This document shows, in pieces, positions 1,904 through 44,843 of a stretch of 64,000 nt of DNA (its first letter is position 1; the number at the start of each line of letters is the position of its first letter). This DNA comes from Wickerhamiella versatilis. Taxonomy: Eukaryota. The notes under the pieces are model-generated. The model was not told where the DNA came from. It did no database searches and saw nothing but the letters and a program-made list of their open reading frames with translations. The position numbers and the translations under genes are program-made. Location: assembly GCA_030867685.1 (NCBI GenBank), contig JAQOWU010000008.1:1302001-1366000 (forward strand), given 5' to 3'.

Positions 1904-3127
1904 ATGCACCGCCGGCTTCATTCAGGTTCACTCTTTCGTGGGAGGCGTAACCAGCGAAGAACAAACAGATTCAATCTTTTAGTTGCTGGAAATGGAGGCT
2001 CAGGAAAGTCCACATTTATCAACACCTTGTGCGGGCATGAGGTTGCCCCGACCTCTGAGTGGTTAGATGAGGACCCCGCCCGCGCTGCGGTTGAGCCTTC
2101 CCTACGTTTACAGGTTTATACCGAAGATATCGCGGACCCGGAACTGGGTAACCTCACGTTAAGGCTGGTGGAGACGTGCCACTTGGGTGATCGCTTCGAT
2201 AATTCTTCCTCTGTGGATGCCATACAAAGGTATGTGGAGACACAATTTGATGAAGTTCTTGCTGAGGAAAGCAGGATTAGACGAAACCCGCGATTCACTG
2301 ATAATCGTCTACACGCGTGTATTTATCTCATTGAGGCCACGGGGCATGGTTTGGGTGAACGCGATATTGAATTTATGAGCCGCCTGGGTGAGCTCGTTAA
2401 TGTTATTCCTGTTCTCGCCAAGAGTGATGCTCTTACCCAGCAGGAAAAATTAACGAATAAACGCCTTATTAGCGAGGACATTGAACGTTATCAGATCCCC
2501 ATCTTCCAGTTTGCGGACTTGAGTGATGGTGAAGAAGAAGATGAAACAGATGAAAATGCTGGGGTGGGCCGACGTGTGGTGCTTGATTCAGTACAGGAAG
2601 CCCTACCTTTCACAATTATCGGTTCTAACAACCATGTGACTACAAGCGGCGGCCACCAGGTGCTTGCTCGCAGTTATCCATGGGGTACGGTAGCTGTGGA
2701 TGACCCCCAGGCATCGGAATTTCCCGTTCTTCGAAACCTGCTCCTGGAAAGTCACATGGAGTATATGAAGGAGACAACTTACGATGTTTTGTACGAAAAC
2801 TACCGTACTCAGCGCCTTTCTCATGATACTCATGCGCTAAAACTAGCAAATGATGATGCGACGCTGTCATATGCGCGAGGAAGCGCAGTACCTCAGGCTA
2901 CTAGCACGACCTCTTCTGCCAACCCCGGGACACAGCAGCAACCAGCGTATGTTGCTCGTGAGAATAGACTAAGGGAAGAGGAAGAGCTTCTTCATCGTGA
3001 TGAGCGTTTGCTGCAGTCAGAGCTCGATCAAAGGAAGCTCGAACTTGCCCAGAGAGAGGCAGAGTTGCAGAAGCTGGAGGAACGTCTGAAACAGGAGGCC
3101 AGTGAGGCTCCTACCCCTATTGGTTGA
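1904..3127 (+). CDS. SHS1: Septin of the Cdc11/Shs1 group, probably Shs1 (407 aa)
   Basis: P-loop GNGGSGKST, EESRIRRNPRF, VNVIPVLAKSD, RSYPWG, C-terminal coiled coil. N-terminal LFR plus basic patch resembles Shs1, and it lies next to PTP1 (both in the same S. cerevisiae YDL22x-23x block). First ATG at 1904. Confidence 0.75.
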   Translation: MHRRLHSGSLFRGRRNQRRTNRFNLLVAGNGGSGKSTFINTLCGHEVAPTSEWLDEDPARAAVEPSLRLQVYTEDIADPELGNLTLRLVETCHLGDRFDNSSSVDAIQRYVETQFDEVLAEESRIRRNPRFTDNRLHACIYLIEATGHGLGERDIEFMSRLGELVNVIPVLAKSDALTQQEKLTNKRLISEDIERYQIPIFQFADLSDGEEEDETDENAGVGRRVVLDSVQEALPFTIIGSNNHVTTSGGHQVLARSYPWGTVAVDDPQASEFPVLRNLLLESHMEYMKETTYDVLYENYRTQRLSHDTHALKLANDDATLSYARGSAVPQATSTTSSANPGTQQQPAYVARENRLREEEELLHRDERLLQSELDQRKLELAQREAELQKLEERLKQEASEAPTPIG

Positions 3128-32333: not shown

Positions 32334-34509
32334 TTATTGTGATTGAGGAGGCAAATGAAGTTTACGAAAACCTTCTAGTAAGCCGTTCCAATCTACCTGA
32401 GCGCTTGGTGCTCGTAACTGACTTGCAGATTCTGGGGTGCTACTGCTGGGAAGTGGCAACTGTCCAATTGACACCACAGATTGCAAACGAGTATGTAAAA
32501 TCTTAAATGCTGAACTCTGTGGAAGAACCATCAATAGACCATAGAGTGTTTTGTAGAGATACGGATAATCCCTCGGCTCCAATAGATGCAAACGTAATGG
32601 CGCAAAAACAGGCCCCTCTATCAATTGAATCAGGCGATCGATCTGTACGAGGGTGCTAACCTTGACATCTAAGCTTGCTAGAATCTGAAGCACCGCGAAG
32701 GCGTGTTCGTAAGCCTCGGCCAAGAGACACAAAGCCAGTGCCGATACACTATTGCAACCCCATGCTTTAAATAGCTGCGTGAACAATGCAGCGCCTTGTG
32801 GTAGCCATAAGCTTTTGAGAGTCGAACGTAAGGGTGCCAGGTCAGGCACCATAATTAGAATATTCGTTAAGTTCTGAACCATGACGCTAGCGAAATCACG
32901 GTCTAAGTAGTCCTCCCGCAATATGTCTGCACTTACACGGTAAAACCGTTCGGGATTCAGAGAAGTTGCCAAGGACGAGCAAACCAGTTTACCTCTCACG
33001 GTCAAAAAATCCCGATTGCTTTCAAACTCTTTAAACAGTTGCCGCATGAAGTTTTCAAACTCAGAATCGGGAGCTGCACGGAGGACTTGTGAAAGCAAAT
33101 CTAGATCTTGAGATACGACTTCTTCACTGGAATCTGACAGAGGTCTTAATAGTACAACCAAGGTACTGCCAAAGAAATTAGCCAATCCAGCCTTCTGCAG
33201 GGTACCAAGCCAAACTAAAGCAGCCATCCTTGTTATCTTCGACTCGTTGTTGAACTGCAAAGTAAGTGCGTTGACGGTGGCTTCCTCGTCTATGTGATAA
33301 TTAGAAGACCCCAAACCGTTTAGAAATTGGCGCACATTTTCACTTAGGTGTTGTCCAACTGGGCGAACTTCAGGCGAAGACTCATCACTTAAAGCCGGTA
33401 AAAGAACAGAGACCAGGTGAGGCAAGTTGGATACTACGTCCTCTGGGCTGACAGTCAAAAAGACATCAAGCCATTCTAATACGACCAACTGGATTTCTTG
33501 ATGGCCACTGTCCAAGTTGTCAAGAAGTGTATTAAGGATTTTTGCATAATCAATTTGCATATCTTGTCCGACTTTATACAGACCATCCTTTGATGGTTCC
33601 GGTTCGTGCTTCAATGCAGCGATAACGCGAATTTCTTTAAGAAAGCTCGTCAAGGCTGAGCGTGTTAAAGCACGTACTTCTCGATTAGGATCACTCAGGA
33701 AATGCAGTAAACCCTCCAGAAATTCAGGGAGGAAAACCACTAACTCTAAATCCGGTATACTATCCAGGAGCATTATCCACTGAATCAAAAACATTCTGGT
33801 CGATGGATTTATCACGTATATACGTTCAACGAGCAATGGGATGAAACTTCGGAGGGAAAAGTGATTAGCATGCTGACCATCTGTAGTTTGATACTGTGGA
33901 CCATTGTCACCGTCTGGAGCCGTTGCCGCCTGAGGTGCGCTGGGCATTTCCCTTAGAACTTGAAAGGTATAGGTAGCAGCTTTCTCTGCAACAATATCCT
34001 TGATAAGATGATCCACCAGATCAGCACCATTCCGCACTCCTTCCTCGCTGTCCGCAATCAACTTGCTTAACACGTCAAAGATCTCATTAAAGTACTGCAG
34101 AATTTCGCCCTTCGCAACTTTAGCAACATTATAGAGGGATTCGCAAGCGTAATATCTCACACGTGAATCGGCATCTCCAAAACACGCTAGAATAGGTTGA
34201 ATGATATCATCTAAAAATGCGGGTAGTTCCTGTTGACCCAAGGCGATCGCAACGCCCGCTAGGCCAATAAGACCACCATTTCTATAGTTAGGATGTCGGA
34301 CGGCGTACGCAAAGTCCTGACATAGCTCGTTTATAACAGCTTGAATGTGGTCTCGGTCTCCTGACGCCAAGTCATCCCGAACGACTTGCTCCAGCTCTAG
34401 AGCTGCGAGCTTTCGCTTGTCATAGAGCCGTTCGGACAATGTCTTCTTCAGGTCACGGTCTGCGTTAGTTTTGTTCCCTCAACATTAAGGCTTTGGTATA
34501 CCTACCCAT
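32334..34509 (-). CDS. VAC14: PIKfyve/Fab1 scaffold Vac14; exons 34509-34506 and 34459-32334
   Basis: Splicing gives MDRDLKKTLSERLYDKRKLAALELE; RNGGLIGLA, RVRYYACESLYNVAK, QIDRLIQLIE, LYGLLMVLPQSSAF. Confidence 0.93.
34460..34505 (-). other. 46-nt spliceosomal intron in VAC14
   Basis: GTAGGT donor after ATGG, branch AACTAAC, acceptor GCAG; removal restores an ATG start in frame. Confidence 0.88.
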
Positions 34510-34683
34510 ATCCCTAGGTGCTGACCTCAGCAAGTTGCCTTCTCCATTACTTAGACAACCACTTATGACAAGATATTATAGGAATATAATGAGAAGCTAG
34601 ACTACATAGAGCTCTAATTCTAGAGCTTTTGCAACTCTTGCTGCGATAGTGATTATGCAGTACCACATTATGACTAATTGCAT

Positions 34684-37035
34684 ATGAACCACTCCCCGCG
34701 CAAAGGCAGTCTTCGTTTGCTCAAAGGTACAGCAAGTATAGCCAATTATCGAGTTCAAAAACATTCAGATCGATATTCGTCTGGTTCTACAAATATACAA
34801 AATACTCATGAGATTTTGGCACGTCCTGTGAAGGAAGAATTACAACGGTTACGAAGTGAGGCCTGCGAGTGGGCACTAGATAGGCAAGTTCTTCAGTCCG
34901 AAATAGGTTCAAATGAAGCAACAATTCAGGAATATCGAAAAAACTTGGAGAACTTGGAAGCTGAGAACAATAGACTTCGCCAGGAGGCCATTGATGTTCG
35001 ATTAGATGGGCAAGCGCAGGCAGCTATGGAACAAGAATTGGAAAGCTTGCGTGATGAATTGGGAGTGGTGTCCCATCAATTTGAAATCTACAGAGTGTCC
35101 ACTGGGAATGATATGGAGCACTTACAACTCGAGCTAACAGAGATTGAAGGTAGGTGGAAAGAGGCTGATAGCGAATGTAAGATGCTACATAGCAACCTCA
35201 AATCATGTGAGGAAAAAGTGGAGGAAAAGTCTGAGCATATAGAGAGGTTGGTCAACAGCCTAAGCCAGATGGAAGATGATCTTAAAATGGAAAGGCAGGA
35301 AAATGAAGATATGCAAGCCAGATTTCAAGTTAACGCAGATTCGAAAAACGCACAGTTGCTTGTTCTTGGGTCGAAAATTCGTACTCTAGATGAAGATGTA
35401 CAAGCACTGCAACAACAATTGTTGTTTGAACGTGATGAGCATGCTAGACTCCTGGGACAAGACTGCATGAACGATTTTCTGAAAATAGAGAAACTGGATA
35501 AGCACTATCAAGCAATCGTTGCAAACTTAGAATCCCAGATAAGTGGACTCGAACACAAATTGGACCATGAAAAAGATAATTCTGAAAAATCTAAGCATGA
35601 AGAGGATCGTATGAGAGCTTCAATGAGAGAAATGGAAATGCAGTTGGTAGACTATTCGAATGTCATAGAAAAACTTCGCATTGATATCTCGGAAAATGGA
35701 AAAAGATCGGCACTGGTATCGGCTCAAAACCAATTATCAGCAAAAGAGACCGAGAATCTTCGTAGCGATATCAAAACTTCTCATCAACAAATCATTAGCC
35801 TCACCAAAGAGCTGGAGTCTTGTCGCAGCTCTTTGGATGAGGCTCAATGTGCATATTCTAAAGCAAACTACGATGCTGCGATGTCGCGCGTCGAGCTTGA
35901 AAACTCAAGGATGACGATTTCTTCACTTGAGGGGCGTAATAGAGAAGTAGAAGCAGCATTAAGAACTCAAGCAGGGCTTGAGGCAGAAGCTGCCGCCAGA
36001 AGATGTGCAGAATTACAAAGGGATATTGGAGCGCTGCAAGAACTCCTCATTAATGAGTCTCAACAGAGAAGAAAGCTTCTACTAGAACTTCAGATCATAA
36101 AGGGTAACATTCGTGTTGTTACAAGGATTCGTCCAGGCAGTGATGCGACATCTCAGCTTGCTGCGAAAGGGAATACTATTGTGACTGGGCAGCATAGATT
36201 TTCTTTCGACCGTGTCTTTGGGCCAGATACAAGTAATGGTCAAGTTTATGATGAGATAGAGTATCTGGTAACAAGTGCTCTAGATGGCCGTCGCGTGTGC
36301 ATTTTCGCGTACGGTCAAACTGGGTCAGGGAAAACATATACAATGAGCTCCAAGGATGGCATTATTGAAAGATCACTGCAAACAGTTTGTAGTGTCAAGC
36401 AGGAGTCTACAGTGCTCACTGCGGAGTTTGTGGAGATATATAATGAAACTATTATTGATCTTTTGGCCTCTCAGAACTCTAATCAAACGCAAAAAATATG
36501 TATTCAAAGAAATTCGAATGGGGAACTCCAACTCGCTAAAAATACACGCGTACGTGTGACTAGCTGCGAACAGGCTTTAGCACTTATAGCTGAGGGCCAA
36601 AGAAGACGATCTGTCGCAGCCACCAAATGTAATGAGCGATCTTCCCGGTCACATAGTGTTTTCATTTTAAACATTGAGCAAAAAGATCCAATTACTGGAC
36701 AACAAGTCTCACGAGGGGCACTTACTTTGGTAGATTTGGCAGGAAGCGAAAGATTGACCCATAGTCAAGTTACAGGCGAAAGACTCCGAGAGACTCAAAA
36801 TATCAATAAAAGCTTGAGTTGCCTAGGAGATGTTATACATGCACTGGTCAAACGTCCCAGAACACATATACCCTTTCGAAACTCCAAACTGACTTTTTTG
36901 CTACAAGACTCATTAAGCGGTGACTCAATGGCAGTTATGCTCCTACATTTGGCACCAGAGCCACAGCATATGTCCGAGACAATATCAACGCTGCGTTTCG
37001 GATCCAAGGTGACCGCTGCCAAGTTAAAGCGTTGA
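34684..37035 (+). CDS. KAR3: Kinesin-14 minus-end motor Kar3 (783 aa)
   Basis: Long coiled coil then C-terminal motor: KGNIRV, IFAYGQTGSGKT, NERSSRSH, LVDLAGSER, HIPFRNSKLT. Confidence 0.9.
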   Translation: MNHSPRKGSLRLLKGTASIANYRVQKHSDRYSSGSTNIQNTHEILARPVKEELQRLRSEACEWALDRQVLQSEIGSNEATIQEYRKNLENLEAENNRLRQEAIDVRLDGQAQAAMEQELESLRDELGVVSHQFEIYRVSTGNDMEHLQLELTEIEGRWKEADSECKMLHSNLKSCEEKVEEKSEHIERLVNSLSQMEDDLKMERQENEDMQARFQVNADSKNAQLLVLGSKIRTLDEDVQALQQQLLFERDEHARLLGQDCMNDFLKIEKLDKHYQAIVANLESQISGLEHKLDHEKDNSEKSKHEEDRMRASMREMEMQLVDYSNVIEKLRIDISENGKRSALVSAQNQLSAKETENLRSDIKTSHQQIISLTKELESCRSSLDEAQCAYSKANYDAAMSRVELENSRMTISSLEGRNREVEAALRTQAGLEAEAAARRCAELQRDIGALQELLINESQQRRKLLLELQIIKGNIRVVTRIRPGSDATSQLAAKGNTIVTGQHRFSFDRVFGPDTSNGQVYDEIEYLVTSALDGRRVCIFAYGQTGSGKTYTMSSKDGIIERSLQTVCSVKQESTVLTAEFVEIYNETIIDLLASQNSNQTQKICIQRNSNGELQLAKNTRVRVTSCEQALALIAEGQRRRSVAATKCNERSSRSHSVFILNIEQKDPITGQQVSRGALTLVDLAGSERLTHSQVTGERLRETQNINKSLSCLGDVIHALVKRPRTHIPFRNSKLTFLLQDSLSGDSMAVMLLHLAPEPQHMSETISTLRFGSKVTAAKLKR

Positions 37036-37116
37036 AGTATTCAGTTGATACTTGGTATTCTTGCAAATATTTTAATCATAATAATCGATATATTTTGAAA
37101 TGCTATGTGGAATAAC

Positions 37117-39027
37117 TTATTGTGGGTGACAGCGATTATAACTTGGCCATGAGGTTTCTTGACTGCTCTGAACCCCTTTTTCTTCCTCGGAAGAAGACGA
37201 AATGATTACATTAGAATTCAAACGAGCAAATGATGATATTTTTCTTTCTAATATGTTAAGTCGATCAGAGACTTCGGTACCGAAATTTGCTAAAGCCGTA
37301 AGGTCATCATGGCAAACTCCTGGAGTATGAGAATTTGATACTTTGCTAGAAAGTGATTCAACTGCATTGAAAAGTGACTGATAATAACGGTAAAGATCAG
37401 CAATTTGATTAGGATAAGATTTACTATCAGCCTTGGGATCTTCACTGACAATATCGGCCCCAATGCCAGTAGATACGCCTCTTTGATTGGAGGAAGAATC
37501 TACGCTGTCCACAGAACTGTAGTTAAGATCTCCAAGTCGACGCTGATCTGGTGGAGCTTGATTCTTCTTACCTTCTTGACTTAGTTTTTCAACAGCCCTA
37601 GTAAGATCTAAAACCTTTTTTTCGGTGCGGCTTTGGTAGTTATCAAGCTTATCCTCGAGCAGCCCTAGTCGTCTTTCAAAGTCCATAGATGCATTTGATC
37701 CTGTACAATGTAGCTGTGAATCGTGACGAGAGGATGAAATAGAGCGTTCAACGGACTCTAAACGGCAAGTTATCCGCTCAAGGGCGTTGCGACCACTTTC
37801 CACAAGATTTCTGAACCTTTCGTTAACTAATTCCTCCGAAAATTTTACGGTTGTTTCAAAGTTTGCTCGAATTTGTTGTATTTCATCAAGGAAAACATTA
37901 GATTCTTTAGTATTCTCACGATTTACCTGGGGATTGTCAGATTCTTGGGTCAAAATATTAAGAGATTCTGAATCGGTTGTGTTACCCGAATCTACTGCTT
38001 CTCCTACAGGTATAGAAGTGATTCTGTCATTGGACTCGATACGCTTTTCTGAATTATTTGCTGCCTCTTTATCTGGTGGTGGTATCCATGAACCCCCAAA
38101 TTTTTCGGTCAATTCACGACAACGATTCGTAGACAGCACCTCAATAGATGATTTCACAGTAAGGTTGATAAATCCATTTTTGATAGAAAATTGAGCTCGC
38201 AAGAGAATAACCTGCCCTGGAAGCAAGTTTCGAGCTAGAGAAACCTTATTGTCATAGAAATGCAATGTGCAGCGATTTAAAGCGGAATTATCTCGAACAG
38301 CTTTCTTGTTGCACATTGACAAGAAATCCTGGACCACTATGTCTACATGCTGTGGTCCATAGTGCCGTACCTCAGATGATAAAAAGAGAGAAAAACTGCT
38401 TAGGCTCGGTTTATTTCCTTTATAGCAGTCCGAAAGAGGAACGAGCTCAGAAATCTCCGGAACACCTAATGTTTCCATGCCCCGAATATCACGTGGACTA
38501 TTTTGCGGCAACTTTAACCACTCATCGAAAGCAGACTCTACCCAGGAGCCGCTGGGAACCCCGCTGGGAGGTCTCTTATTCTCGGCATATACAACCATAG
38601 TTCCAGGCGTGGACCAAAAAAAAGAATTTCCCATTGGTTTCAACGCTGTGATAAGAACCATCATGTTAAGCTTTATAGATGCGGATTCTAACACAGGATA
38701 GCATTCGGACATATCTAGAAGGACTGAAACAGGATACGAATCTCCTACGAGAGAGAGTCGTAATCTCAGAGCTTTAACATCACGATTTTGCACCAAGAGG
38801 TTTTCAGGGAATACCTCATTACGAACTACTCCAGCTATTGCCTTTAGTTGGCCTCTCGAGCCTCCCAATAACATGCTTTGATCGATCACTACATGGTCAC
38901 GCGATGGTAGCTCATCCCGCTTCGTACGGACCCGCTTCGAAGGTTTTTTAGACTGATTAACATGTCCTTGCTTTGGTATGGTATAATTGCCGATGCCGCG
39001 CCCACCATTTGGTGGTGGGCGTTTCAT
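37117..39027 (-). CDS. Hypothetical 636-aa protein; possible Pot1-like OB folds followed by coiled coils
   Basis: Long ATG ORF with a beta-rich N-terminal half (VDIVVQDF, TLHFYD...ARNLLPGQVILLR). Confidence 0.7.
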   Translation of the reverse strand: MKRPPPNGGRGIGNYTIPKQGHVNQSKKPSKRVRTKRDELPSRDHVVIDQSMLLGGSRGQLKAIAGVVRNEVFPENLLVQNRDVKALRLRLSLVGDSYPVSVLLDMSECYPVLESASIKLNMMVLITALKPMGNSFFWSTPGTMVVYAENKRPPSGVPSGSWVESAFDEWLKLPQNSPRDIRGMETLGVPEISELVPLSDCYKGNKPSLSSFSLFLSSEVRHYGPQHVDIVVQDFLSMCNKKAVRDNSALNRCTLHFYDNKVSLARNLLPGQVILLRAQFSIKNGFINLTVKSSIEVLSTNRCRELTEKFGGSWIPPPDKEAANNSEKRIESNDRITSIPVGEAVDSGNTTDSESLNILTQESDNPQVNRENTKESNVFLDEIQQIRANFETTVKFSEELVNERFRNLVESGRNALERITCRLESVERSISSSRHDSQLHCTGSNASMDFERRLGLLEDKLDNYQSRTEKKVLDLTRAVEKLSQEGKKNQAPPDQRRLGDLNYSSVDSVDSSSNQRGVSTGIGADIVSEDPKADSKSYPNQIADLYRYYQSLFNAVESLSSKVSNSHTPGVCHDDLTALANFGTEVSDRLNILERKISSFARLNSNVIISSSSEEEKGVQSSQETSWPSYNRCHPQ

Positions 39028-39155
39028 GATAGTTCGTCTCGTCTGTCTCTGTCAGCTGCCAGTCTCTCCACATTCGGTTGCATGAAATAAAATATTTGAA
39101 CATTGCTGGGGTCGCGACACTAGCTATATACTCTTCATTTTAGTAGAATTCTTAA

Positions 39156-39953
39156 TTACTGCATAGGACAATTAGGCTCAGACCCATCAGAGAGCGAACC
39201 GATTAATTCGTCAGGAGGATTCCCACTTCGCTGCATGGCTTCCATTCGCTCTGCTATATACTGGCGACATTTTGAATCGGTATCACTATAATCGGCAGCC
39301 TCAAACTTAGCCACAATCTCAGACACAACTTTACTCTGGCCTCGGTATCTTTCAATCTCAGGGTCATCAGCATGTTTAACAAGAAAAGCGGGATATTTCT
39401 CATTAAGTTCACGAAGAGGCTCGTACAATATATCCTTTGATTGGAGCTCTTCCATCAGTCCAGCAAGTAACGAGTCGACATCGCCACCCGCGGTATTCTG
39501 TAGCTCACCCAGCATCTTTGACAGGAATTCATCAGAGTTTGGCTGATTCATGGAATTACCCTGCTCATTGAGTCTGTTCATTGTCTCATTAATAGTATCT
39601 TTAAAATCCTTTGAATCAGAAGATCTGCTTCCTGTGGGGTCGACCTTCCCTTGAAGGTCTGCCATTAGCGTCTCAAACGCCTTCTGGGCCTGGGGATCAT
39701 CATTCATCTCCTGCATTAACTGATCCATATCGGTTTGAAGTTTTTTAGAAAACTCTTCGTCTTGTGCTGCAGGCGGATCATCAAGCCGTAGATCAGAAAG
39801 AGGTGGTGGCTCGTCATCTTCTTTCAAGTTGCGTTCATATGTCTTTTCGTCTTTCTTATTTGCAGAACCAGGCGCCTGGCTCAATATCTTTTCATGAAGC
39901 TCAAAATCATCCAAAAGGTCGTCAAGATCATCGTGATTCGAGTCCGACCCCAT
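39156..39953 (-). CDS. PEX19: Peroxin Pex19 (265 aa)
   Basis: DDLDDLLDD N-terminus, SKDILYEPLREL..KYP, MQRSGNPP, CaaX CPMQ. ATG at 39953. Confidence 0.93.
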   Translation of the reverse strand: MGSDSNHDDLDDLLDDFELHEKILSQAPGSANKKDEKTYERNLKEDDEPPPLSDLRLDDPPAAQDEEFSKKLQTDMDQLMQEMNDDPQAQKAFETLMADLQGKVDPTGSRSSDSKDFKDTINETMNRLNEQGNSMNQPNSDEFLSKMLGELQNTAGGDVDSLLAGLMEELQSKDILYEPLRELNEKYPAFLVKHADDPEIERYRGQSKVVSEIVAKFEAADYSDTDSKCRQYIAERMEAMQRSGNPPDELIGSLSDGSEPNCPMQ

Positions 39954-40009
39954 TATAATAATTGTAAAGGTGGGGGGCAAGAACCAGCGCTGATTCAGCA
40001 GAAGTATCT

Positions 40010-40483
40010 ATGAGCAGTTTGTGCCTCACGCGCTTGCAACAGGAACGAAAAAACTGGAGAAAGGATCATCCGTTTGGCTTTTGGGCTAAACCAAAAAAAG
40101 GTGCTGATGGGGCTTTAAACCTCATGGAATGGTCAGTCGGTATTCCTGGTAAAGTGAATACTGACTGGGAGGGTGGAATTTATCCAGTCACAGTACGCTT
40201 CAGCCAGGAGTATCCCTCGAAGCCGCCAAAATGTCAATTTCCTGCAGGTTTTTATCACCCTAATGTTTACCCGTCGGGCACTGTTTGCCTAAGCATCCTT
40301 AATGAATCGGAAGATTGGCGACCTGCTTTGTCTGTGAAACAAATATGTCTCGGGATCCAGGAGCTACTAGATACCCCTAATCCAAAGTCTCCAGCGCAAA
40401 TGGACGCATATACGGAGTACATGAGGAATAAGGACAAGTACGCAAGAAGGGTCAAAGAACAAGCGAGACAATATACAGATTAA
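40010..40483 (+). CDS. UBC9: SUMO-conjugating enzyme Ubc9
   Basis: [33 protein letters not shown]. Confidence 0.97.
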
Positions 40484-40587
40484 AAAAAAATAAACGCTTT
40501 AATTTATGTCTATAATCCTTTAATATCTTCTAATATAAGAACGGGTATAGATAAGTTCTCATTGTCACATTACTTATCAAAGAGCTT

Positions 40588-41472
40588 ATGGACCGCACGG
40601 TGCTGTATCGGGAACTCGTTAAGCTTGTGAATCCAAGGGTAGAAGAAGGAGTGGCACCAGAAGTAAATAATGACGATCTTACGAACACATGCAAGGAAAT
40701 CGCTCACTCTGTACTGAAAGTAGGTGCGTATCTTGCGGATGTCAGGCCGCAGTATCTTGCGGTGTCTGGTAACGAGAAACAGCGCGATGATATAGACTTT
40801 GAGGTTAGCCGTGTCATTCAGATGGAGAAAAAAAAGATAAGGCAGTTGGAAATGATTGAAAACGAGCGGTTTGAAAAGTCGCAGGTCACAGGGTTCCGAA
40901 AAATGATCAGCGACCCTCGCATTCAGAAGGTAAATGAGACCCTACACGCACATCGTCAGGGAATATTTGTGTACTTGAATACTCAGCTCCAACGGGTCTC
41001 TGCTAGCCAAGCAGATGCTCAGCATGTGAGGCTCGCCCGACAAGTGCCACTGAAGGAGAGCTTCAATTCATCTTTAAAACCGTCCGCAAATGAGAAACCC
41101 ATTAGCCTTGAAGAGATTAAGGATGAGAACGAAAAAATACCGCAGGACGGTGAGCAGGATAGCGAGCAAATGCTGCTTCTTGCTGAGAATGACGAGCTGA
41201 TGACCGAATTGAATGAGACCCTAGAAAGGGCGAGGAAGGCTGAGCGATCTATTCGTGATGTTGCAGAATTGCAGGCAGAGTTATCTGCGCATCTTGAATC
41301 CCAAACTCAGACCATCAACCTGCTTGCCAGTGACGTGGAACAATCCACCGCAGATGTGGGGAGTGCAAATGAACAGCTTAAACGAGCCAAACAACGGAAC
41401 AAGCGCGCATCAAAGTTTATTGTATATGGATGTGTGGCCAGTGGTCTACTCTTGTTATTTTTTAATCGTTAA
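40588..41472 (+). CDS. UFE1: ER syntaxin Ufe1 (syntaxin-18-like)
   Basis: HRQGIFVYL motif, t-SNARE coiled coil, C-terminal TM anchor; next to HBS1/SKI7, as UFE1 is next to SKI7 in S. cerevisiae. Confidence 0.82.
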   Translation: MDRTVLYRELVKLVNPRVEEGVAPEVNNDDLTNTCKEIAHSVLKVGAYLADVRPQYLAVSGNEKQRDDIDFEVSRVIQMEKKKIRQLEMIENERFEKSQVTGFRKMISDPRIQKVNETLHAHRQGIFVYLNTQLQRVSASQADAQHVRLARQVPLKESFNSSLKPSANEKPISLEEIKDENEKIPQDGEQDSEQMLLLAENDELMTELNETLERARKAERSIRDVAELQAELSAHLESQTQTINLLASDVEQSTADVGSANEQLKRAKQRNKRASKFIVYGCVASGLLLLFFNR

Positions 41473-41627
41473 GAAACCCATAATTATAGGATAAGATAAG
41501 TCGAATTGCGGATAGCATTTAAAATATTTACTCGAAGAAAAAAGTGCACCTGATTTTGCTTGAGTGTTTTAGAGATTTCCCTTCTAAAAAACAGAGGACT
41601 AAGGATAATCTATGTTTAAACTTTATT

Positions 41628-43688
41628 TCATGCGCTCTCCACAACACCACCACCGACAGTCCTACCGTTCAAACGGAGAACGAACCGACCTAACTCTTTG
41701 CAGATGTTGGGAGTGGTTAAGATCGTGGGCTCTTCCAACTCAAGTTCAACTTTTGCAGCTTGACCTTTTATAATATGACGCGGAACTTTCGGTAGTGCGT
41801 TACCATGCTTGTCCAGTCCGGCTAATATTTTCGACACTCTCGCCATCTGATTGTGTCTGCCCATATAAAATGAGAGCTTCGTTCCTACTAAGAGAGGCCT
41901 TGGGATGTCAAATAGAATCAACCTAGACTCAAACTTCTTCATAGCATCGAGTTTTCCGTCTGGTGCTGTGATCACGTCTCCAGGACGTATCTCTACCGAA
42001 CTTCCAATTTCAAGCGTTGCATGGCTTCCTGCAACAGCGTAACCGCCAGACTCTACTGATTTAACCACACATTGCGTATCGTTCACCACTAGAGGATCAT
42101 TTTTTTCCGCTATTCCACTGAGTACACGCCCGAAGCATTGGATTGTGGACCGATATGCCTCTGGAAATGCGTTACTCACAAGGAAGCGAAAGGGTCCTTC
42201 AATATTTCTTGGACTGACCTTCACCGATTCCAGAGAATGTACTAGGGTGGGCCCATTATACCAAGGAATATCATTTGATGACGGCTTGACAATATTCACC
42301 CCCGTCTTACCGCTAGTTGGCACGTATGTCACGTTATTGAATCCAACATTTTTCTGGAGGAAAGGTTCCAGTTGGGCCTTAATGTCTTCGAAGCGGTCTT
42401 GGGACCAGTCTTGAATATCGAGCTTGTTTATGGCCACAATCATCTGGTCAATGCCCAGACCTCGAGCAAGAACTGCATGCTCCTTCGTCTGCCCATCAAG
42501 AGAAAAACCAGATTCAAATGCGTTTGTCGCGGCATCTACAACTAGCACAGCTACCTCAGCCTGCGAAACACCAGCAATCATGTTAGGGACATAATCACGA
42601 TGTCCCGGAGCATCCACCACGCTGAACCGGGCCTTGGGTGTTTCAAAGCTAGCCTCACCAAAATCAACAGTGACCCCACGCTCTCGTTCTTCTTCTGTGG
42701 CATCCAGTAGCCATGCTAGGGCAAAACTGCCTTTGCCAATTTTCGAGCTTTCTTTTTCATACTTGTCTACAAGTTTTGATGGAATCGCCCCAGAATCAAG
42801 CAGGAGTCTCCCCATTAAAGTTGATTTTCCAGCATCTACATGCCCAATGACGACAAAGCTAATATTGGGCTTCAGGCTCAGCGAGTTCAATTGGGCAATC
42901 ACACCATCTTTCGGCTTTGTCTTGGTCTTAGGAACGGATGCGGTTGCAGGCGTTTTAGCAACGTTCTTCGTCTTCGACTCTTTAGCAGGTTCAAAGGCTT
43001 CTGACTGTGCCGACAGAACCTGCTCATCAGGACTGGGCTTAGAAAAAGCTTCTTTGGCCTTCGGGCCCGCTGGTACTGCTGTGTTAGCATTCGTGCAACC
43101 GATCGCAAAATTACCGCCCATTAACAACCCAAGAGTTGATGGCTCACAAAGAACAACCTTGCTCCAGCTATAATCAATCTCAGGCTCCGATTTTACTGAT
43201 TTTGGTGCATCAGTGAAACTATCAGCTTCCTTATTGGACAGTTCGCTAGGTTCGTCAATGCTATCTGCGTTAACCCCATGCGTTGCAACATGCTGCTTCT
43301 GTCTTCGAAATCGATCTATAATGCCACCTGCAGTATCCGCATTATTGCTTTTATTATGCCGCTGGACAAGGCGCGCCAGCGCACCTTCCGAGCTGTTGTC
43401 CTTCTTCCCATCTCCCTGGCGTTTTTGAGCCAATAATTGTAATTTTGATAACTTACCCTCAGTTTTTTGTGATGCAGCTGGCTTAGGCGCAGACTTTTGA
43501 GCTTGCTTCGCCTGTTTTGAGGCCTGTAGACGCTTCAGTTCTGCGATGGCTGCATCCACGTCATAGTCTGTATGCTCTAGTGCCGTTAATGCTTCATCCT
43601 CAGATATTCTTGGTTTAGAATTCCGGAATACAGCAAGTACCTCATCTAGAGACTCGTCATAGTCGTCGTAGTCGTCGTCAAGCTGCAT
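41628..43688 (-). CDS. HBS1: Hbs1/Ski7 translational GTPase; 686 aa unspliced, 560 aa if the internal intron is removed
   Basis: GHVDAGKSTLMG, ERERGVT, DAPGHRDYVPNMI, NKLD; Hbs1-type N-terminus plus Ski7-like SKLQLLAQKR and FSKPSPDE motifs. Confidence 0.93.
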   Translation of the reverse strand: MQLDDDYDDYDESLDEVLAVFRNSKPRISEDEALTALEHTDYDVDAAIAELKRLQASKQAKQAQKSAPKPAASQKTEGKLSKLQLLAQKRQGDGKKDNSSEGALARLVQRHNKSNNADTAGGIIDRFRRQKQHVATHGVNADSIDEPSELSNKEADSFTDAPKSVKSEPEIDYSWSKVVLCEPSTLGLLMGGNFAIGCTNANTAVPAGPKAKEAFSKPSPDEQVLSAQSEAFEPAKESKTKNVAKTPATASVPKTKTKPKDGVIAQLNSLSLKPNISFVVIGHVDAGKSTLMGRLLLDSGAIPSKLVDKYEKESSKIGKGSFALAWLLDATEEERERGVTVDFGEASFETPKARFSVVDAPGHRDYVPNMIAGVSQAEVAVLVVDAATNAFESGFSLDGQTKEHAVLARGLGIDQMIVAINKLDIQDWSQDRFEDIKAQLEPFLQKNVGFNNVTYVPTSGKTGVNIVKPSSNDIPWYNGPTLVHSLESVKVSPRNIEGPFRFLVSNAFPEAYRSTIQCFGRVLSGIAEKNDPLVVNDTQCVVKSVESGGYAVAGSHATLEIGSSVEIRPGDVITAPDGKLDAMKKFESRLILFDIPRPLLVGTKLSFYMGRHNQMARVSKILAGLDKHGNALPKVPRHIIKGQAAKVELELEEPTILTTPNICKELGRFVLRLNGRTVGGGVVESA
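43079..43456 (-). other. Candidate in-frame retained intron (378 nt) in HBS1/SKI7
   Basis: GTAAGT donor at 43456, TGCTAAC branch at 43089-43083, ACAG acceptor ending 43079; length is a multiple of 3 with no stops. Confidence 0.78.
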
Positions 43689-43832
43689 AACGAATTTACT
43701 AACAACTTATATGATCATCCTAATAGATAGAGTATAGCATGGTTCTCTGAATAGCCCACATAGATAGTGCTAAATTATCAAAAGAAAAAAAATAAAAAGA
43801 CGTTGGACTGATATATGATTTTTTGTTACTAT

Positions 43833-44423
43833 TCAAAGTTGTTTCACGATATTTTTCGCTGCTTTTGAATTTAGGGAGGCGTTTACCACCTCGGCCTCGT
43901 TTATTCCCCAAGCTGCACGTAATTCCTCAAGTTGACGCTTCCCAAGCCATCCTTCACCTGGAATAAATACCCGGCGATACCCTTGACGTTCAGCCAGATA
44001 GTCTATCATCATGGAGCGAGTAAAGAAATCTTGAGCTCTGCGCGGAGATGTTTCAGGACTGCTCATCTTGCCAGGGCCACCCCTACACTGCTGGTGCTGT
44101 GGGAGTTTCGACAACCTCATTTCTGCACGAATGGCATCCAGGGCCGCCTGAGTTTGACAGTTCAGCTCCTCCTCAAGGTCTCGGGCAAATACATCGAGCC
44201 GCAAAGTCTCAGTGCGCGCCCCCTGCCTTAGTGTTGAACGCAGCATCACGATCGCAAACGTGAAGCCAATGATACAAAAGGTTGATAATATAGTCTCTAC
44301 TTGTTTTGCTGCTATGGTCGAAGTCAATTGCTGCATGCGATGCTCGAGTAATTTCTTCACCACTGCGCCGCAACTCCCGGCTAGAATAAGGGTGACTGCC
44401 ACATTACGAGCAAGAAATTCCAT
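43833..44423 (-). CDS. Hypothetical membrane protein (196 aa)
   Basis: ATG at 44423; two hydrophobic segments; C-terminal GYRRVFIPGEGW. Confidence 0.65.
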   Translation of the reverse strand: MEFLARNVAVTLILAGSCGAVVKKLLEHRMQQLTSTIAAKQVETILSTFCIIGFTFAIVMLRSTLRQGARTETLRLDVFARDLEEELNCQTQAALDAIRAEMRLSKLPQHQQCRGGPGKMSSPETSPRRAQDFFTRSMMIDYLAERQGYRRVFIPGEGWLGKRQLEELRAAWGINEAEVVNASLNSKAAKNIVKQL

Positions 44424-44843
44424 TGTTATAAAGTAACAAGTATCAGTCAATGGTGTCTTGAGGTGCGACTCAAGTCTCCTGTGTACTTGAATTATTTTAA
44501 AGCCACCAAATGGCGATACATACCGAATGGTTTCGGTTTTGTCATTGTAGCTCTATTTTAGTCGGAGGTAAATAATAAGCTAATAAACATACTCACAAGA
44601 TGATATCACTGAAGGCAAAAGGGGGGATACAAAAAGCAAGAGTGAACTCGCTATCATGCCCTCTTGGGCAACAAGTGGTTCAGACTCCCGGCGATAAGGT
44701 TCAGATTGTTCTTTGAAACAAGAATAGGAAAAGACTAGCTATAGTACGCGTGACGTCATAAGACTAAGAAGGTCGTAACAAGTTCAAGGTTAGGGCTCTT
44801 CGTTAGGTGCGAGAAAACAGCATCGGCGACGAGGTGGACGGCC

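What the first reader, a model, noticed from the sequence alone, without database searches (positions are those of the whole stretch)
43079..43456. Hidden in-frame intron in HBS1 encoding a Ski7-like segment: a possible Hbs1/Ski7 switch by intron retention
Seen: inside the continuous 686-aa ORF there is a perfect donor (GAG G|GTAAGT, 43456), a branchpoint TGCTAAC (43089-43083) and an ACAG acceptor (43079). The branch-to-AG spacing is identical to the VAC14 intron. The interval is 378 nt (126 codons), stop-free and phase-compatible, giving ...QKTE-A-VPAGP (560 aa). A NAGNAG alternative acceptor at 43076 is also in frame. The removed part begins with LSKLQLLAQKR, which resembles the Ski7 N-terminal Ski-complex-binding motif. 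Known: pre-duplication yeasts such as Lachancea make Hbs1 and Ski7 from one gene by alternative 3' splice sites. Inference: here the long form needs no splicing, so the switch would be retention of an exitron. The Ski7-type PSPD motif (FSKPSPDE) lies downstream of the acceptor and would stay in both isoforms.
Basis: partly seen in the sequence, partly recalled or inferred. Interest (0 to 1): 0.85.

Follow-up and report, generated by a model that had tools for sequence, protein, structure and literature searches.

The report
Ski7/Hbs1 switch by intron retention
A yeast gene for RNA-surveillance factors carries a translatable, in-frame intron that is removed from about half of its transcripts, so one gene probably makes both a long Ski7-like and a short Hbs1-like protein, a new way of doing a known switch.

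Summary
In four runs from three studies, reads or a contig join 43457 to 43075. That removes 381 nt (43456..43076, GT..AG on the minus strand). Unspliced RNA is about as abundant: in X8 the intron bin has depth 52.7 against 110.6 in the next exon bin, with 51 junction reads.

The retained 127 codons look like coding sequence. They are stop-free, have normal codon usage, and stay open in all 17 full-length relatives aligned, down to 39% identity.

The gene is a single SKI7/HBS1-type gene. An N-terminal profile hits only S. cerevisiae Ski7 in the PDB. The acceptor sits just upstream of the Patch-4/S3 motif, where the known SKI7/HBS1 alternative intron ends (PMC3597508).

The difference from Lachancea is that there is no proximal 3' splice site. 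The long, Ski7-like form needs no splicing. This is a new variant of a known switch. The functions of the two isoforms are inferred, not tested, and a separate SKI7 gene could not be excluded because no genome is held.

The parts
41628..43688 (-). SKI7/HBS1-type gene; continuous 686-aa ORF, which is the unspliced long isoform
   Evidence: ORF. Pfam GTP_EFTU 274-467 (E 1.9e-45), GTP-eEF1A_C 585-684, and a weak HBS1_N match at 4-61 (E 5.5e-4, below cut-off).
43457..43688 (-). Exon 1 coding part (aa 1-77 plus the first base of codon 78): acidic N-terminus and HBS1_N-like domain, shared by both isoforms
43451..43456 (-). 5' splice site GTAAGT, phase 1, lying inside codons GGT AAG TTA (G78 K79 L80)
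   Evidence: Sequence; junction reads.
43076..43456 (-). 381-nt in-frame, stop-free intron (exitron). Retained, it encodes 127 aa of the long isoform; removed, it gives the 559-aa form ...QKTE-V-PAGP...
   Evidence: Joint 43075|43457 in 4 of 4 runs. Frame and products. Only 4 of 20,000 shuffles were stop-free, and codon-usage score was 0.217 against an in-frame mean of 0.199 and an off-frame maximum of 0.112.
43419..43451 (-). LSKLQLLAQKR (aa 80-90), an S1-like motif directly behind the donor
   Evidence: Conserved as [ST][KP]LQxLAQxR in P0001-P0013. Aligns collinearly but not significantly with Ski7 MSLLEQLARKR.
43359..43385 (-). GALARLVQR (aa 102-110), a second copy of the LAxL..R-type motif
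   Evidence: Conserved island in the alignment. Aligns with Ski7 SLLERLHKNR, not significantly.
43119..43145 (-). EPSTLGLLM (aa 182-190), a candidate 'SKI7-like motif' (exosome-binding type), present only in the long isoform
   Evidence: Conserved as PSxFGALL in relatives. Compared by eye with the consensus A+PShFAahL quoted in PMC6143672 (passages seen).
43083..43089 (-). Branch-point motif TGCTAAC, lying inside codons GCT AAC (A-N)
   Evidence: An [A/T/S]-N dipeptide stands at or next to this column in 19 of 19 aligned rows.
43079..43080 (-).
   Evidence: No 378-nt joint listed (threshold 3 reads).
43076..43077 (-). The 3' splice-site AG that is used
   Evidence: table 5.
43005..43046 (-). 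FSKPSPDEQVLSAQ (aa 215-228): Patch-4-like / S3 motif, present in both isoforms
   Evidence: F215, S219, D221 and Q228 are invariant in 19 sequences. This stretch drives the profile match to S. cerevisiae Ski7 residues 198-240, E 2.2e-5 to 3.3e-4.
41637..42869 (-). Translational GTPase core (aa 274-684), with GHVDAGKS and DAPGH (catalytic His kept)
34460..34505 (-). Control, not part of the gene: the 46-nt VAC14 intron GTAGGT..AACTAACGCAG directly after ATGG
   Evidence: Joint 34459|34506 in X8 (1 read), X11 (3) and X12 (6), plus loose ends at 34460. Sequence. Vac14_Fig4_bd Pfam hit.

Best explanation
This is the single SKI7/HBS1 gene of a budding yeast related to Wickerhamiella. Its transcript has one intron of 381 nt (43456..43076). 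The intron is a multiple of three in length, has no in-frame stop, and encodes real protein.

About half of the transcripts keep the intron. They encode a 686-aa long form in which the shared N-terminal domain is followed by Ski7-type short motifs: LSKLQLLAQKR-type repeats and a PSxLGLL motif. By analogy with Ski7, these should tether the Ski complex and the cytoplasmic exosome. The other half are spliced. They encode a 559-aa form that lacks those motifs and should act as Hbs1, the GTPase partner of Dom34.

Both forms keep the Patch-4/S3 motif and an intact GTPase. Unlike Lachancea and most ascomycetes, no proximal 3' splice site is involved. The ratio of the two forms is set simply by whether the intron is spliced or not.

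Shown: the junction, co-existence of both RNAs, the coding character and conservation of the retained part, and Ski7 affinity of the N-terminal region. Inferred: translation of both RNAs and the Ski7/Hbs1 division of labour.
For: RNA evidence:
- The joint 43075|43457 appears in 4 of 4 runs from 3 studies: X8 51 reads from 31 starts, X11 5 reads, X12 10 reads, X1 one contig at depth 11.5.
- Intron bin against the next exon bin: X8 52.7 vs 110.6, X12 17.7 vs 34.0, X11 5.7 vs 36.5. X1 has an unspliced 440-nt contig at depth 9.18.
- X11 and X12 are poly(A) libraries.
- The control VAC14 intron was found in the same lay.

Coding character of the retained part:
- Only 4 of 20,000 shuffles are stop-free in frame.
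- Codon-usage score is 0.217. In-frame windows of other genes average 0.199 (sd 0.079, n=181); the off-frame maximum is 0.112 (n=362).
- The other two frames of the intron carry 3 and 18 stops.

Conservation:
- I aligned 18 of the 120 listed hits.
- 17 of those 18, down to 39% identity, read as one open frame through the region. P0024 starts downstream of it.
- Conserved islands lie at S1, at PSxFGALL and at Patch-4.

Ski7 affinity: a profile of the N-terminal regions gives 4 hits with E below 0.001 out of 8 hits with E up to 10. All 4 are S. cerevisiae Ski7. No Hbs1 chain appears.

Position:
- The acceptor is 10 codons upstream of Patch-4/S3. PMC3597508 (Results read) states that the alternative intron ends 'just upstream of motif S3'.
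- Comparator L001 has the conventional layout. Its donor G|GTATGT is at the same place and its TACTAAC lies in 'TN' codons at the aligned place (hhalign probability 94%, E 1.2e-7). Its intron has in-frame stops ahead of MSKLEQLARSK.
Against: - The significant Ski7 match lies in Patch-4, which both isoforms keep. The match of the retained part to the Ski7 N-terminus is collinear but weak (4.3 bits, i-Evalue 370).
- A single-sequence PDB search of aa 60-240 found nothing.
- hhalign against L001 aligned only 40 columns around the branch and Patch-4.
- The PSxLGLL likeness to the published SKI7-like motif was judged by eye.
- No protein data exist. Unspliced reads could partly be pre-mRNA, and the libraries are unstranded.
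- No genome is held, so a separate SKI7 paralogue is not excluded.
- Splice-signal conservation in relatives is inferred from amino-acid footprints. DNA was seen only for the window, its near-identical strains and L001.
Confidence: 0.75

Rival explanations
1. The intron is an ordinary, inefficiently spliced intron. Only the spliced 559-aa Hbs1-like mRNA is functional, and the unspliced RNA is pre-mRNA or a harmless by-product.
For: Intron retention is the commonest fungal splicing variant and is usually non-productive (PMC3597508 Introduction; PMC2911113 abstract and passages). The libraries cannot tell nuclear pre-mRNA from mature mRNA.
Against: A 127-codon stop-free frame is very unlikely for non-coding sequence (4 of 20,000 shuffles). 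Codon usage is coding-like. The frame stays open in 17 of 18 aligned relatives, with conserved motif islands. Retention is about 50% in poly(A) libraries. PMC2911113 reports that stop-free 3n introns are counter-selected in Yarrowia.
Confidence: 0.06
2. Splicing here is spliceosomal noise on a coding sequence (a proto-intron). The 686-aa protein carries out all functions and the short form has no role of its own.
For: The donor/branch/AG triple is not rare by chance (34 in the window). NCBI annotates the W. sorbophila orthologue only as the long, unspliced form.
Against: About half of transcripts are spliced in 3 independent studies. The splice sites sit exactly where the conserved SKI7/HBS1 alternative intron begins and ends (PMC3597508; L001). 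Amino-acid footprints compatible with the donor stand at the aligned place in 15 of 18 relatives, and footprints compatible with CTAAC in 19 of 19 rows. In L. kluyveri the long form does not complement hbs1 (PMC3597508).
Confidence: 0.09
3. Both isoforms are made, but they do not divide Ski7 and Hbs1 functions. For example, a separate SKI7 gene exists elsewhere, and the isoforms differ in regulation or localisation only.
For: The genome could not be searched. Independent SKI7/HBS1 duplications are known in WGD yeasts and Schizosaccharomyces (PMC3597508).
Against: The retained part carries the motif types that define Ski7-specific exons, and the catalytic His is kept as in undivided genes (PMC3597508). 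Duplicated lineages lost the alternative splicing, whereas here it is active.
Confidence: 0.1

Closest known systems
Lachancea kluyveri SKI7/HBS1 (alternative 3' splice sites; Marshall et al. 2013, PMC3597508, Results read)
   Same: One gene. Exon 1 encodes the Hbs1 N-terminal domain. A Ski7-specific segment with S1-type motifs is removed to make Hbs1. The distal 3' splice site lies just upstream of motif S3/Patch-4. The GTPase is intact. Both RNAs are present.
   Different: In L. kluyveri the long form needs splicing to a proximal 3' splice site. Here no proximal site exists: the Ski7-type segment follows the donor directly in frame, and the unspliced mRNA encodes the long form. Only one joint is seen.
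Candida albicans-clade SKI7/HBS1 (single distal 3' splice site plus an internal promoter; PMC3597508)
   Same: The proximal 3' splice site is lost and only the distal site is used for the Hbs1 form.
   Different: Candida makes the Ski7 form from a separate transcript that starts at motif S1 and lacks exon 1. Here the long form keeps exon 1 and arises by non-splicing. I did not test for an internal start here.
S. cerevisiae PTC7 (a 3n, stop-free intron; spliced and unspliced mRNAs both encode proteins; described in PMC3597508)
   Same: The same mechanism: retention of a translatable in-frame intron gives a second functional protein.
   Different: An unrelated gene. The PTC7 intron encodes a transmembrane helix that changes localisation, not partner-binding motifs.
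Plant HBS1/SKI7 cassette exon (Brunkard and Baker 2018, PMC6143672, passages seen)
   Same: [quoted passage not shown]
   Different: Plants skip a cassette exon between two introns. Here there is one intron that is itself the coding segment.
Metagenome contig L001 (unnamed yeast)
   Same: Donor in a G codon after ...K-G (G|GTATGT). TACTAAC lies in T-N codons about 15 aa before FKKPSPDD. An S1 motif, MSKLEQLARSK, is present.
   Different: In L001 the stretch between the donor and S1 has in-frame stops, so it is a true intron with a likely proximal acceptor. That is the conventional alternative-3'-site layout, inferred from sequence only.

Membership tests
Undivided SKI7/HBS1 gene (Marshall 2013) | C-terminal Hbs1-type translational GTPase with the catalytic His kept | tested here: met
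   GTP_EFTU E 1.9e-45. DAPGH and GHVDAGKS are invariant. The best named hits are HBS1 / EF1-alpha-like proteins of Saccharomycotina.
Undivided SKI7/HBS1 gene (Marshall 2013) | [quoted passage not shown] | tested here: inconclusive
   HBS1_N matches aa 4-61 with E 5.5e-4 and 20.7 bits, below the 26.4-bit cut-off. Several relatives carry PF08938.
Undivided SKI7/HBS1 gene (Marshall 2013) | [quoted passage not shown] | tested here: met
   FSKPSPDEQVLSAQ starts 10 codons after the acceptor. The profile match to Ski7 198-240 has E 2.2e-5 to 3.3e-4.
Undivided SKI7/HBS1 gene (Marshall 2013) | Ski7-specific motifs (S1/S2, SKI7-like motif) confined to the alternative segment | tested here: inconclusive
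   Conserved islands LSKLQLLAQKR, GALARLVQR and EPSTLGLLM lie inside 43076-43456. Their alignment to the Ski7 N-terminus is collinear but not significant. The SKI7-like motif was compared by eye with PMC6143672.
Undivided SKI7/HBS1 gene (Marshall 2013) | Two mRNA isoforms that differ by the alternative segment | tested here: met
   Junction reads plus unspliced coverage in 4 of 4 runs.
Undivided SKI7/HBS1 gene (Marshall 2013) | Long form complements ski7 only and short form complements hbs1 only | not testable with these tools
   Needs yeast genetics.
Undivided SKI7/HBS1 gene (Marshall 2013) | Only one such gene in the genome | not testable with these tools
   No genome is held for this window.
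Alternative-3'-splice-site type of SKI7/HBS1 switch (most ascomycetes) | A proximal and a distal 3' splice site used with one donor | tested here: not met
   Only one joint from this donor is listed. The frame is open from the donor onward, and S1 follows it directly.
Translatable retained intron / exitron (PTC7 type) | Length a multiple of three, no in-frame stop, internal to a coding exon, both RNAs present | tested here: met
   381 nt with 0 in-frame stops. Coding-like codon usage. Both RNAs seen.
Yarrowia-type intron architecture (branch point abutting the 3' splice site) | CTAAC within a few nucleotides of the AG | tested here: met
   VAC14: CTAAC+2 nt+AG. This gene: CTAAC+5 nt+AG. Both are confirmed by joints. 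[quoted passage not shown]

The most novel reading that the evidence does not exclude
In the Wickerhamiella/Starmerella lineage the ancient SKI7/HBS1 alternative-3'-site switch has been rebuilt as a pure splice-or-not switch. The proximal intron was lost, and the donor (in G-K-L codons, which may form the start of the Ski-complex-binding motif) and the branch point (in A/T-N codons) became doubly constrained as protein and as splice signals. The Ski7:Hbs1 ratio is then set only by the kinetics of one weak intron. That ratio could be tuned, or fed back on, by the state of RNA surveillance or by stress.
Probability: 0.3. Interest if true: 0.65.

Novelty: new variant of a known kind. Interest (0 to 1): 0.5.

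Why it matters
SKI7/HBS1 is the reference case of one gene making two RNA-quality-control factors by alternative splicing, and of subfunctionalisation after duplication. Alternative 3' sites, an internal promoter, exon skipping and duplication were the routes I could find described (PMC3597508, PMC6143672, PMC7491326).

A lineage in which the Ski7-specific exon is itself the intron adds a further route. It gives a rare, RNA-validated functional "exitron" in a budding yeast. It also shows that current annotation records only one of the two products: the W. sorbophila orthologue is annotated as the 708-aa long form.

Finally, it offers a simple system. With one donor and one acceptor, one can ask how a cell sets the ratio of exosome-tethering activity to ribosome-rescue activity.

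Tried and rejected
- Whole-genome search for a second SKI7/HBS1 paralogue: not possible, because no genome is held.
- The look-up of sequencing runs: no RNA holder listed by the index. Raw RNA runs with the same species label were laid instead.
- Strict short-range pattern GTAAGT..TGCTAAC..AG: 0 matches. My gap limit of 20-50 nt excluded this 381-nt intron, so the result is uninformative.
- Single-sequence PDB search with aa 60-240: 0 hits at E up to 10.
- Word-based search with region 72-240: only the two closest relatives, P0001 and P0002. The segment evolves too fast for this tool.
- Metagenome scan: 80 loci. By their N-terminal sequence most look like eEF1A or other distant translational GTPases. 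I examined only L001 further, as a SKI7/HBS1 comparator. No close relative's DNA was obtained, so splice-signal conservation in relatives rests on amino-acid footprints.
- Earlier findings of this scan: nothing relevant.
- Marshall et al. 2018 (PNAS, PMC6055164) is not held. I could not check whether it already describes an intron-retention version. Supplementary alignments of PMC3597508 (motifs S1-S3) were not seen.
- Literature searches for this variant found none. Hurtig et al. 2020 does not mention Wickerhamiella, Starmerella, Blastobotrys or Trichomonascus.
- No structure or complex prediction was run.
- Rejected reading: acceptor at 43079, giving 378 nt and a TE-A-VPAGP junction. It is not supported by reads.
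Full report
OBSERVATION. The minus strand holds a continuous 686-aa ORF at 43688..41628. The donor is GAG G|GTAAGT, with the intron's first base at 43456. The branch motif TGCTAAC lies at 43089-43083. It is followed by ACAG (AG at 43080-43079) and a second AG at 43077-43076 (CAGCAG). Removing 378 or 381 nt keeps the frame and gives 560-aa or 559-aa products.

On sequence alone this is not remarkable. A loose scan for donor, CTAAC within 1 kb and the next AG gave 34 triples on the two strands of the window. Being stop-free also follows trivially from lying inside an ORF.

RNA EVIDENCE. No genome is held. However, raw RNA-seq runs labelled with the same species as the best DNA holders were offered. 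I laid three of them (X8; X11 and X12, both poly(A)) plus the contigs of X1 on window 34000-44500. That stretch also contains the predicted VAC14 intron as a positive control.

Only two joints were listed in the 10,501 nt:
- 34459|34506, the 46-nt VAC14 intron (GTAGGT...AACTAACGCAG, directly after ATGG). It has 1, 3 and 6 reads in X8, X11 and X12, plus loose ends at 34460.
- 43075|43457, which skips 381 nt with GT..AG ends. It has 32+19 reads from 31 starts in X8, 3+2 in X11, 4+6 in X12, and one X1 contig at depth 11.5.

The intron is therefore real, and its acceptor is the AG at 43076. No 378-nt joint using 43079 reached the threshold of 3 reads. The spliced product reads ...QKTE-V-PAGPKAKEAFSKPSPDE....

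Unspliced RNA is about as abundant as spliced RNA:
- X8: the intron bin (43126-43476) has summed depth 52.7, against 110.6 in the next exon bin, with 51 junction reads.
- X12: 17.7 against 34.0, with 10 junction reads.
- X11: 5.7 against 36.5, with 5 junction reads. This run has a strong 3' bias.
- X1: an unspliced 440-nt contig (43047-43486, depth 9.18) stands beside the spliced one (depth 11.5).

Roughly half of the transcripts are spliced. This is a rough estimate from depths, and the libraries are unstranded.

The RNA strains differ from the window at many fixed positions. None of the listed differences touches the splice signals. The nearest listed difference is at 43014. 154 less well supported rows were not shown.

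THE RETAINED INTRON IS CODING SEQUENCE. Three results support this.
- In-frame stop-free status was reached by 4 of 20,000 mononucleotide shuffles of the 128 codons. The intron's other two frames carry 3 and 18 stops.
- A codon-usage log-ratio was trained on 23 other ORFs of the window. It gives 0.217 per codon for the retained part. That is inside the in-frame distribution (mean 0.199, sd 0.079, n=181) and above every one of 362 off-frame windows (maximum 0.112).
- Of the 120 best hits listed, out of 7,169 with E up to 1e-10, I aligned 18: the top 13 plus P0017, P0018, P0020, P0024 and P0031. Seventeen of them, at 39-98% identity, read as one open frame from the N-terminal domain through this region into the GTPase. 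P0024, the 554-aa Sugiyamaella model, starts downstream.

Conservation within the segment is island-like. It is high at GKL[ST][KP]LQxLAQxR, at a second LAxL..R motif, at PSxFGALL and at the following AFxKPSPDDxVLxAQ. It is low in between, as expected for short binding motifs in a disordered linker.

WHAT THE GENE IS. Pfam finds the translational GTPase core (GTP_EFTU, E 1.9e-45) and a sub-threshold HBS1_N match in exon 1. The GHVDAGKS and DAPGH motifs are intact. Named relatives are HBS1 / EF1-alpha-like proteins of Trichomonascus, Blastobotrys and Sugiyamaella. The cluster of P0003 (53% identity in the alignment) contains the 708-aa 'HBS1-like protein' of Wickerhamiella sorbophila. The window therefore comes from a yeast related to that group.

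A profile of the N-terminal regions only (13 sequences) was searched against all PDB chains. It gave eight hits at E up to 10. The four with E below 0.001 (2.2e-5 to 3.3e-4) are all S. cerevisiae Ski7, and no Hbs1 chain appears.

The significant stretch in those matches is Patch-4 (Ski7 198-240, NFNRPSPDDIIQSAQLNAF). The same alignments place Ski7's N-terminal MSLLEQLARKR...SLLERLHKNR collinearly on the GKLSKLQLLAQKR...LAKLAKKR part of the profile. That piece alone is not significant (4.3 bits).

The conserved PSxFGALL island (EPSTLGLLM here) resembles, by eye, the 'SKI7-like motif' consensus A+PShFAahL. PMC6143672 (passages seen) describes that motif as necessary and sufficient for exosome recruitment of human SKI7.

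POSITION OF THE INTRON. Marshall et al. 2013 (PMC3597508, Results read) show that L. kluyveri, Aspergillus and Saitoella use one donor after exon 1 and two 3' splice sites. The segment between the two sites carries Ski7 motifs S1/S2. The distal site lies 'just upstream of motif S3'. The long form complements ski7 only, and the short form complements hbs1 only.

Here the donor follows exon 1, and the acceptor lies 10 codons before the PSPD motif. That is the same place.

A metagenome contig, L001, gives a DNA-level comparator with the conventional layout:
- exon 1 ending ...EKG with G|GTATGT;
- then in-frame stops;
- then MSKLEQLARSK;
- then TACTAAC inside the codons for 'NTNTV', 15 aa before FKKPSPDD.

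hhalign aligns exactly this stretch to the window's 'TNANTAV...FSKPSPDE' (probability 94%, E 1.2e-7, 40 columns).

In the window, by contrast, the S1-type motif follows the donor directly and in frame (GGT AAG TTA TCA AAA TTA...). There is no proximal acceptor, and the only joint from this donor goes to 43076. The long form therefore needs no splicing.

FOOTPRINTS IN RELATIVES (inference; no DNA seen).
- At the aligned donor position, 11 of the 13 closest relatives have G-K-L. P0005 has G-K-S and P0013 has G-E-F. Trichomonascus has G-M-L and Blastobotrys has G-M-S.
- These residues can be encoded by G|GTAAGT, G|GTGAGT or G|GTATGT. That makes 15 of 18 relatives at the aligned place. P0017 has GKS three residues away, P0031 has none, and P0024 lacks the region.
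- An [A/T/S]-N dipeptide (nCT AAC) stands at or next to one column in 19 of 19 rows.
- In P0001-P0013, S1 follows G-K-L directly, as in the window. In P0017, P0018 and P0020, 20-35 residues intervene.
- The proximal-intron-less layout may thus be specific to the Wickerhamiella-like group.

MECHANISM. One pre-mRNA has one weak intron. If the intron is not spliced, the result is a 686-aa protein. [quoted passage not shown]

If the intron is spliced, the result is a 559-aa protein without those motifs. It would be the Hbs1-like partner of Dom34.

Retention creates no premature stop, so the unspliced mRNA should escape NMD. This is the opposite of the usual design of yeast introns. PMC2911113 (abstract and passages seen) reports that stop-free 3n introns are under-represented in Yarrowia. 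The same paper reports that the branch point and 3' site are juxtaposed there, as in both introns confirmed here.

The RNA facts are shown. Translation and the division of labour are inferred by homology with L. kluyveri.

AGAINST AND OPEN.
- The only statistically significant Ski7 similarity lies in the part shared by both isoforms.
- The S1 and SKI7-like-motif similarities are weak or judged by eye. Single-sequence searches of the segment found nothing beyond two close relatives.
- Some of the unspliced reads may be pre-mRNA.
- A second SKI7 gene cannot be excluded without the genome.
- It is unexplained why the first AG (CTAAC+2, the spacing used in VAC14) is skipped in favour of the second (CTAAC+5).

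NOVELTY. The SKI7/HBS1 switch itself is known. The routes I could find described are alternative 3' sites, an internal promoter in the C. albicans clade, exon skipping or cassette exons in basidiomycetes and plants, and gene duplication (PMC3597508; PMC6143672; PMC7491326, passages seen).

None of the accessible texts or six literature searches describes a version in which the unspliced mRNA encodes the Ski7 form. Marshall et al. 2018 (PNAS) and all supplements could not be read, so prior description is not excluded.

The closest mechanistic analogue is PTC7 of S. cerevisiae. I rate this as a new variant of a known kind, of moderate interest.

Noticed in passing
window ~43674 (minus-strand codons 6-7 of the HBS1/SKI7 ORF): There is an 18-nt in-frame length difference in the acidic N-terminus. 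RNA runs X8 (64 reads), X12 (7) and X1 (1 contig) carry extra letters here (table 7). They match the 692-aa P0001 (MQLDDDDLVDYDD) against the window's MQLDDDYDD. This is a strain polymorphism or an assembly difference.
   Followed up: partly
window 34460-34505 (-): VAC14 (ORF 32334..34478 plus ATGG at 34509-34506) has a 46-nt intron directly after the first four coding bases (GTAGGT...AACTAACGCAG). It is confirmed by junction reads in three RNA runs.
   Followed up: yes
window 39971-40000: Loose read ends in X11 and X12 carry a constant oligo-like sequence (GTATCAACGCAGAGTACATGGG and its complement). I recall this as a template-switch adaptor. It would mark transcript 5' ends of the divergent PEX19-like (39953, -) and UBC9-like (40010, +) genes only about 10-30 nt apart (table 7).
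   Followed up: no
window 34684-37035 (+): The kinesin-motor ORF (Kinesin E 2.2e-95) is almost silent in all three RNA runs, at depth mostly below 1. Its neighbours are at 10-100 (table 2).
   Followed up: no
window 2230-2646 (+), inside the septin ORF 1904..3127: This is another donor/branch/AG triple of 3n length (AAG|GTATGT ... TTCTAAC +15 nt AG, 417 nt) inside a coding ORF. It lies outside the stretch laid with reads, so it is untested and may well be chance.
   Followed up: no
P0124 / cluster of P0003: The NCBI model of the Wickerhamiella sorbophila orthologue (HBS1-like protein, 708 aa) is the uninterrupted long form. If the same splicing occurs there, the short Hbs1-type product is missing from the annotation.
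   Followed up: no
L001:1059-1960 (+): A metagenome contig of an unnamed yeast shows the conventional SKI7/HBS1 layout: donor G|GTATGT, an intron with in-frame stops, MSKLEQLARSK, and TACTAAC before FKKPSPDD. It served as the DNA-level comparator. A second contig from the same record set, L003, looks like an intronless Hbs1-only gene without a PSPD motif.
   Followed up: partly
window 43076-43080 (-): In the CAGCAG tandem acceptor only the downstream AG is seen in use. Yet the upstream AG has the same CTAAC+2 spacing as the confirmed VAC14 acceptor. Relatives mostly have N-T-V where the window has N-T-A-V, so the extra GCA codon may be a recent 3-nt duplication.
   Followed up: partly
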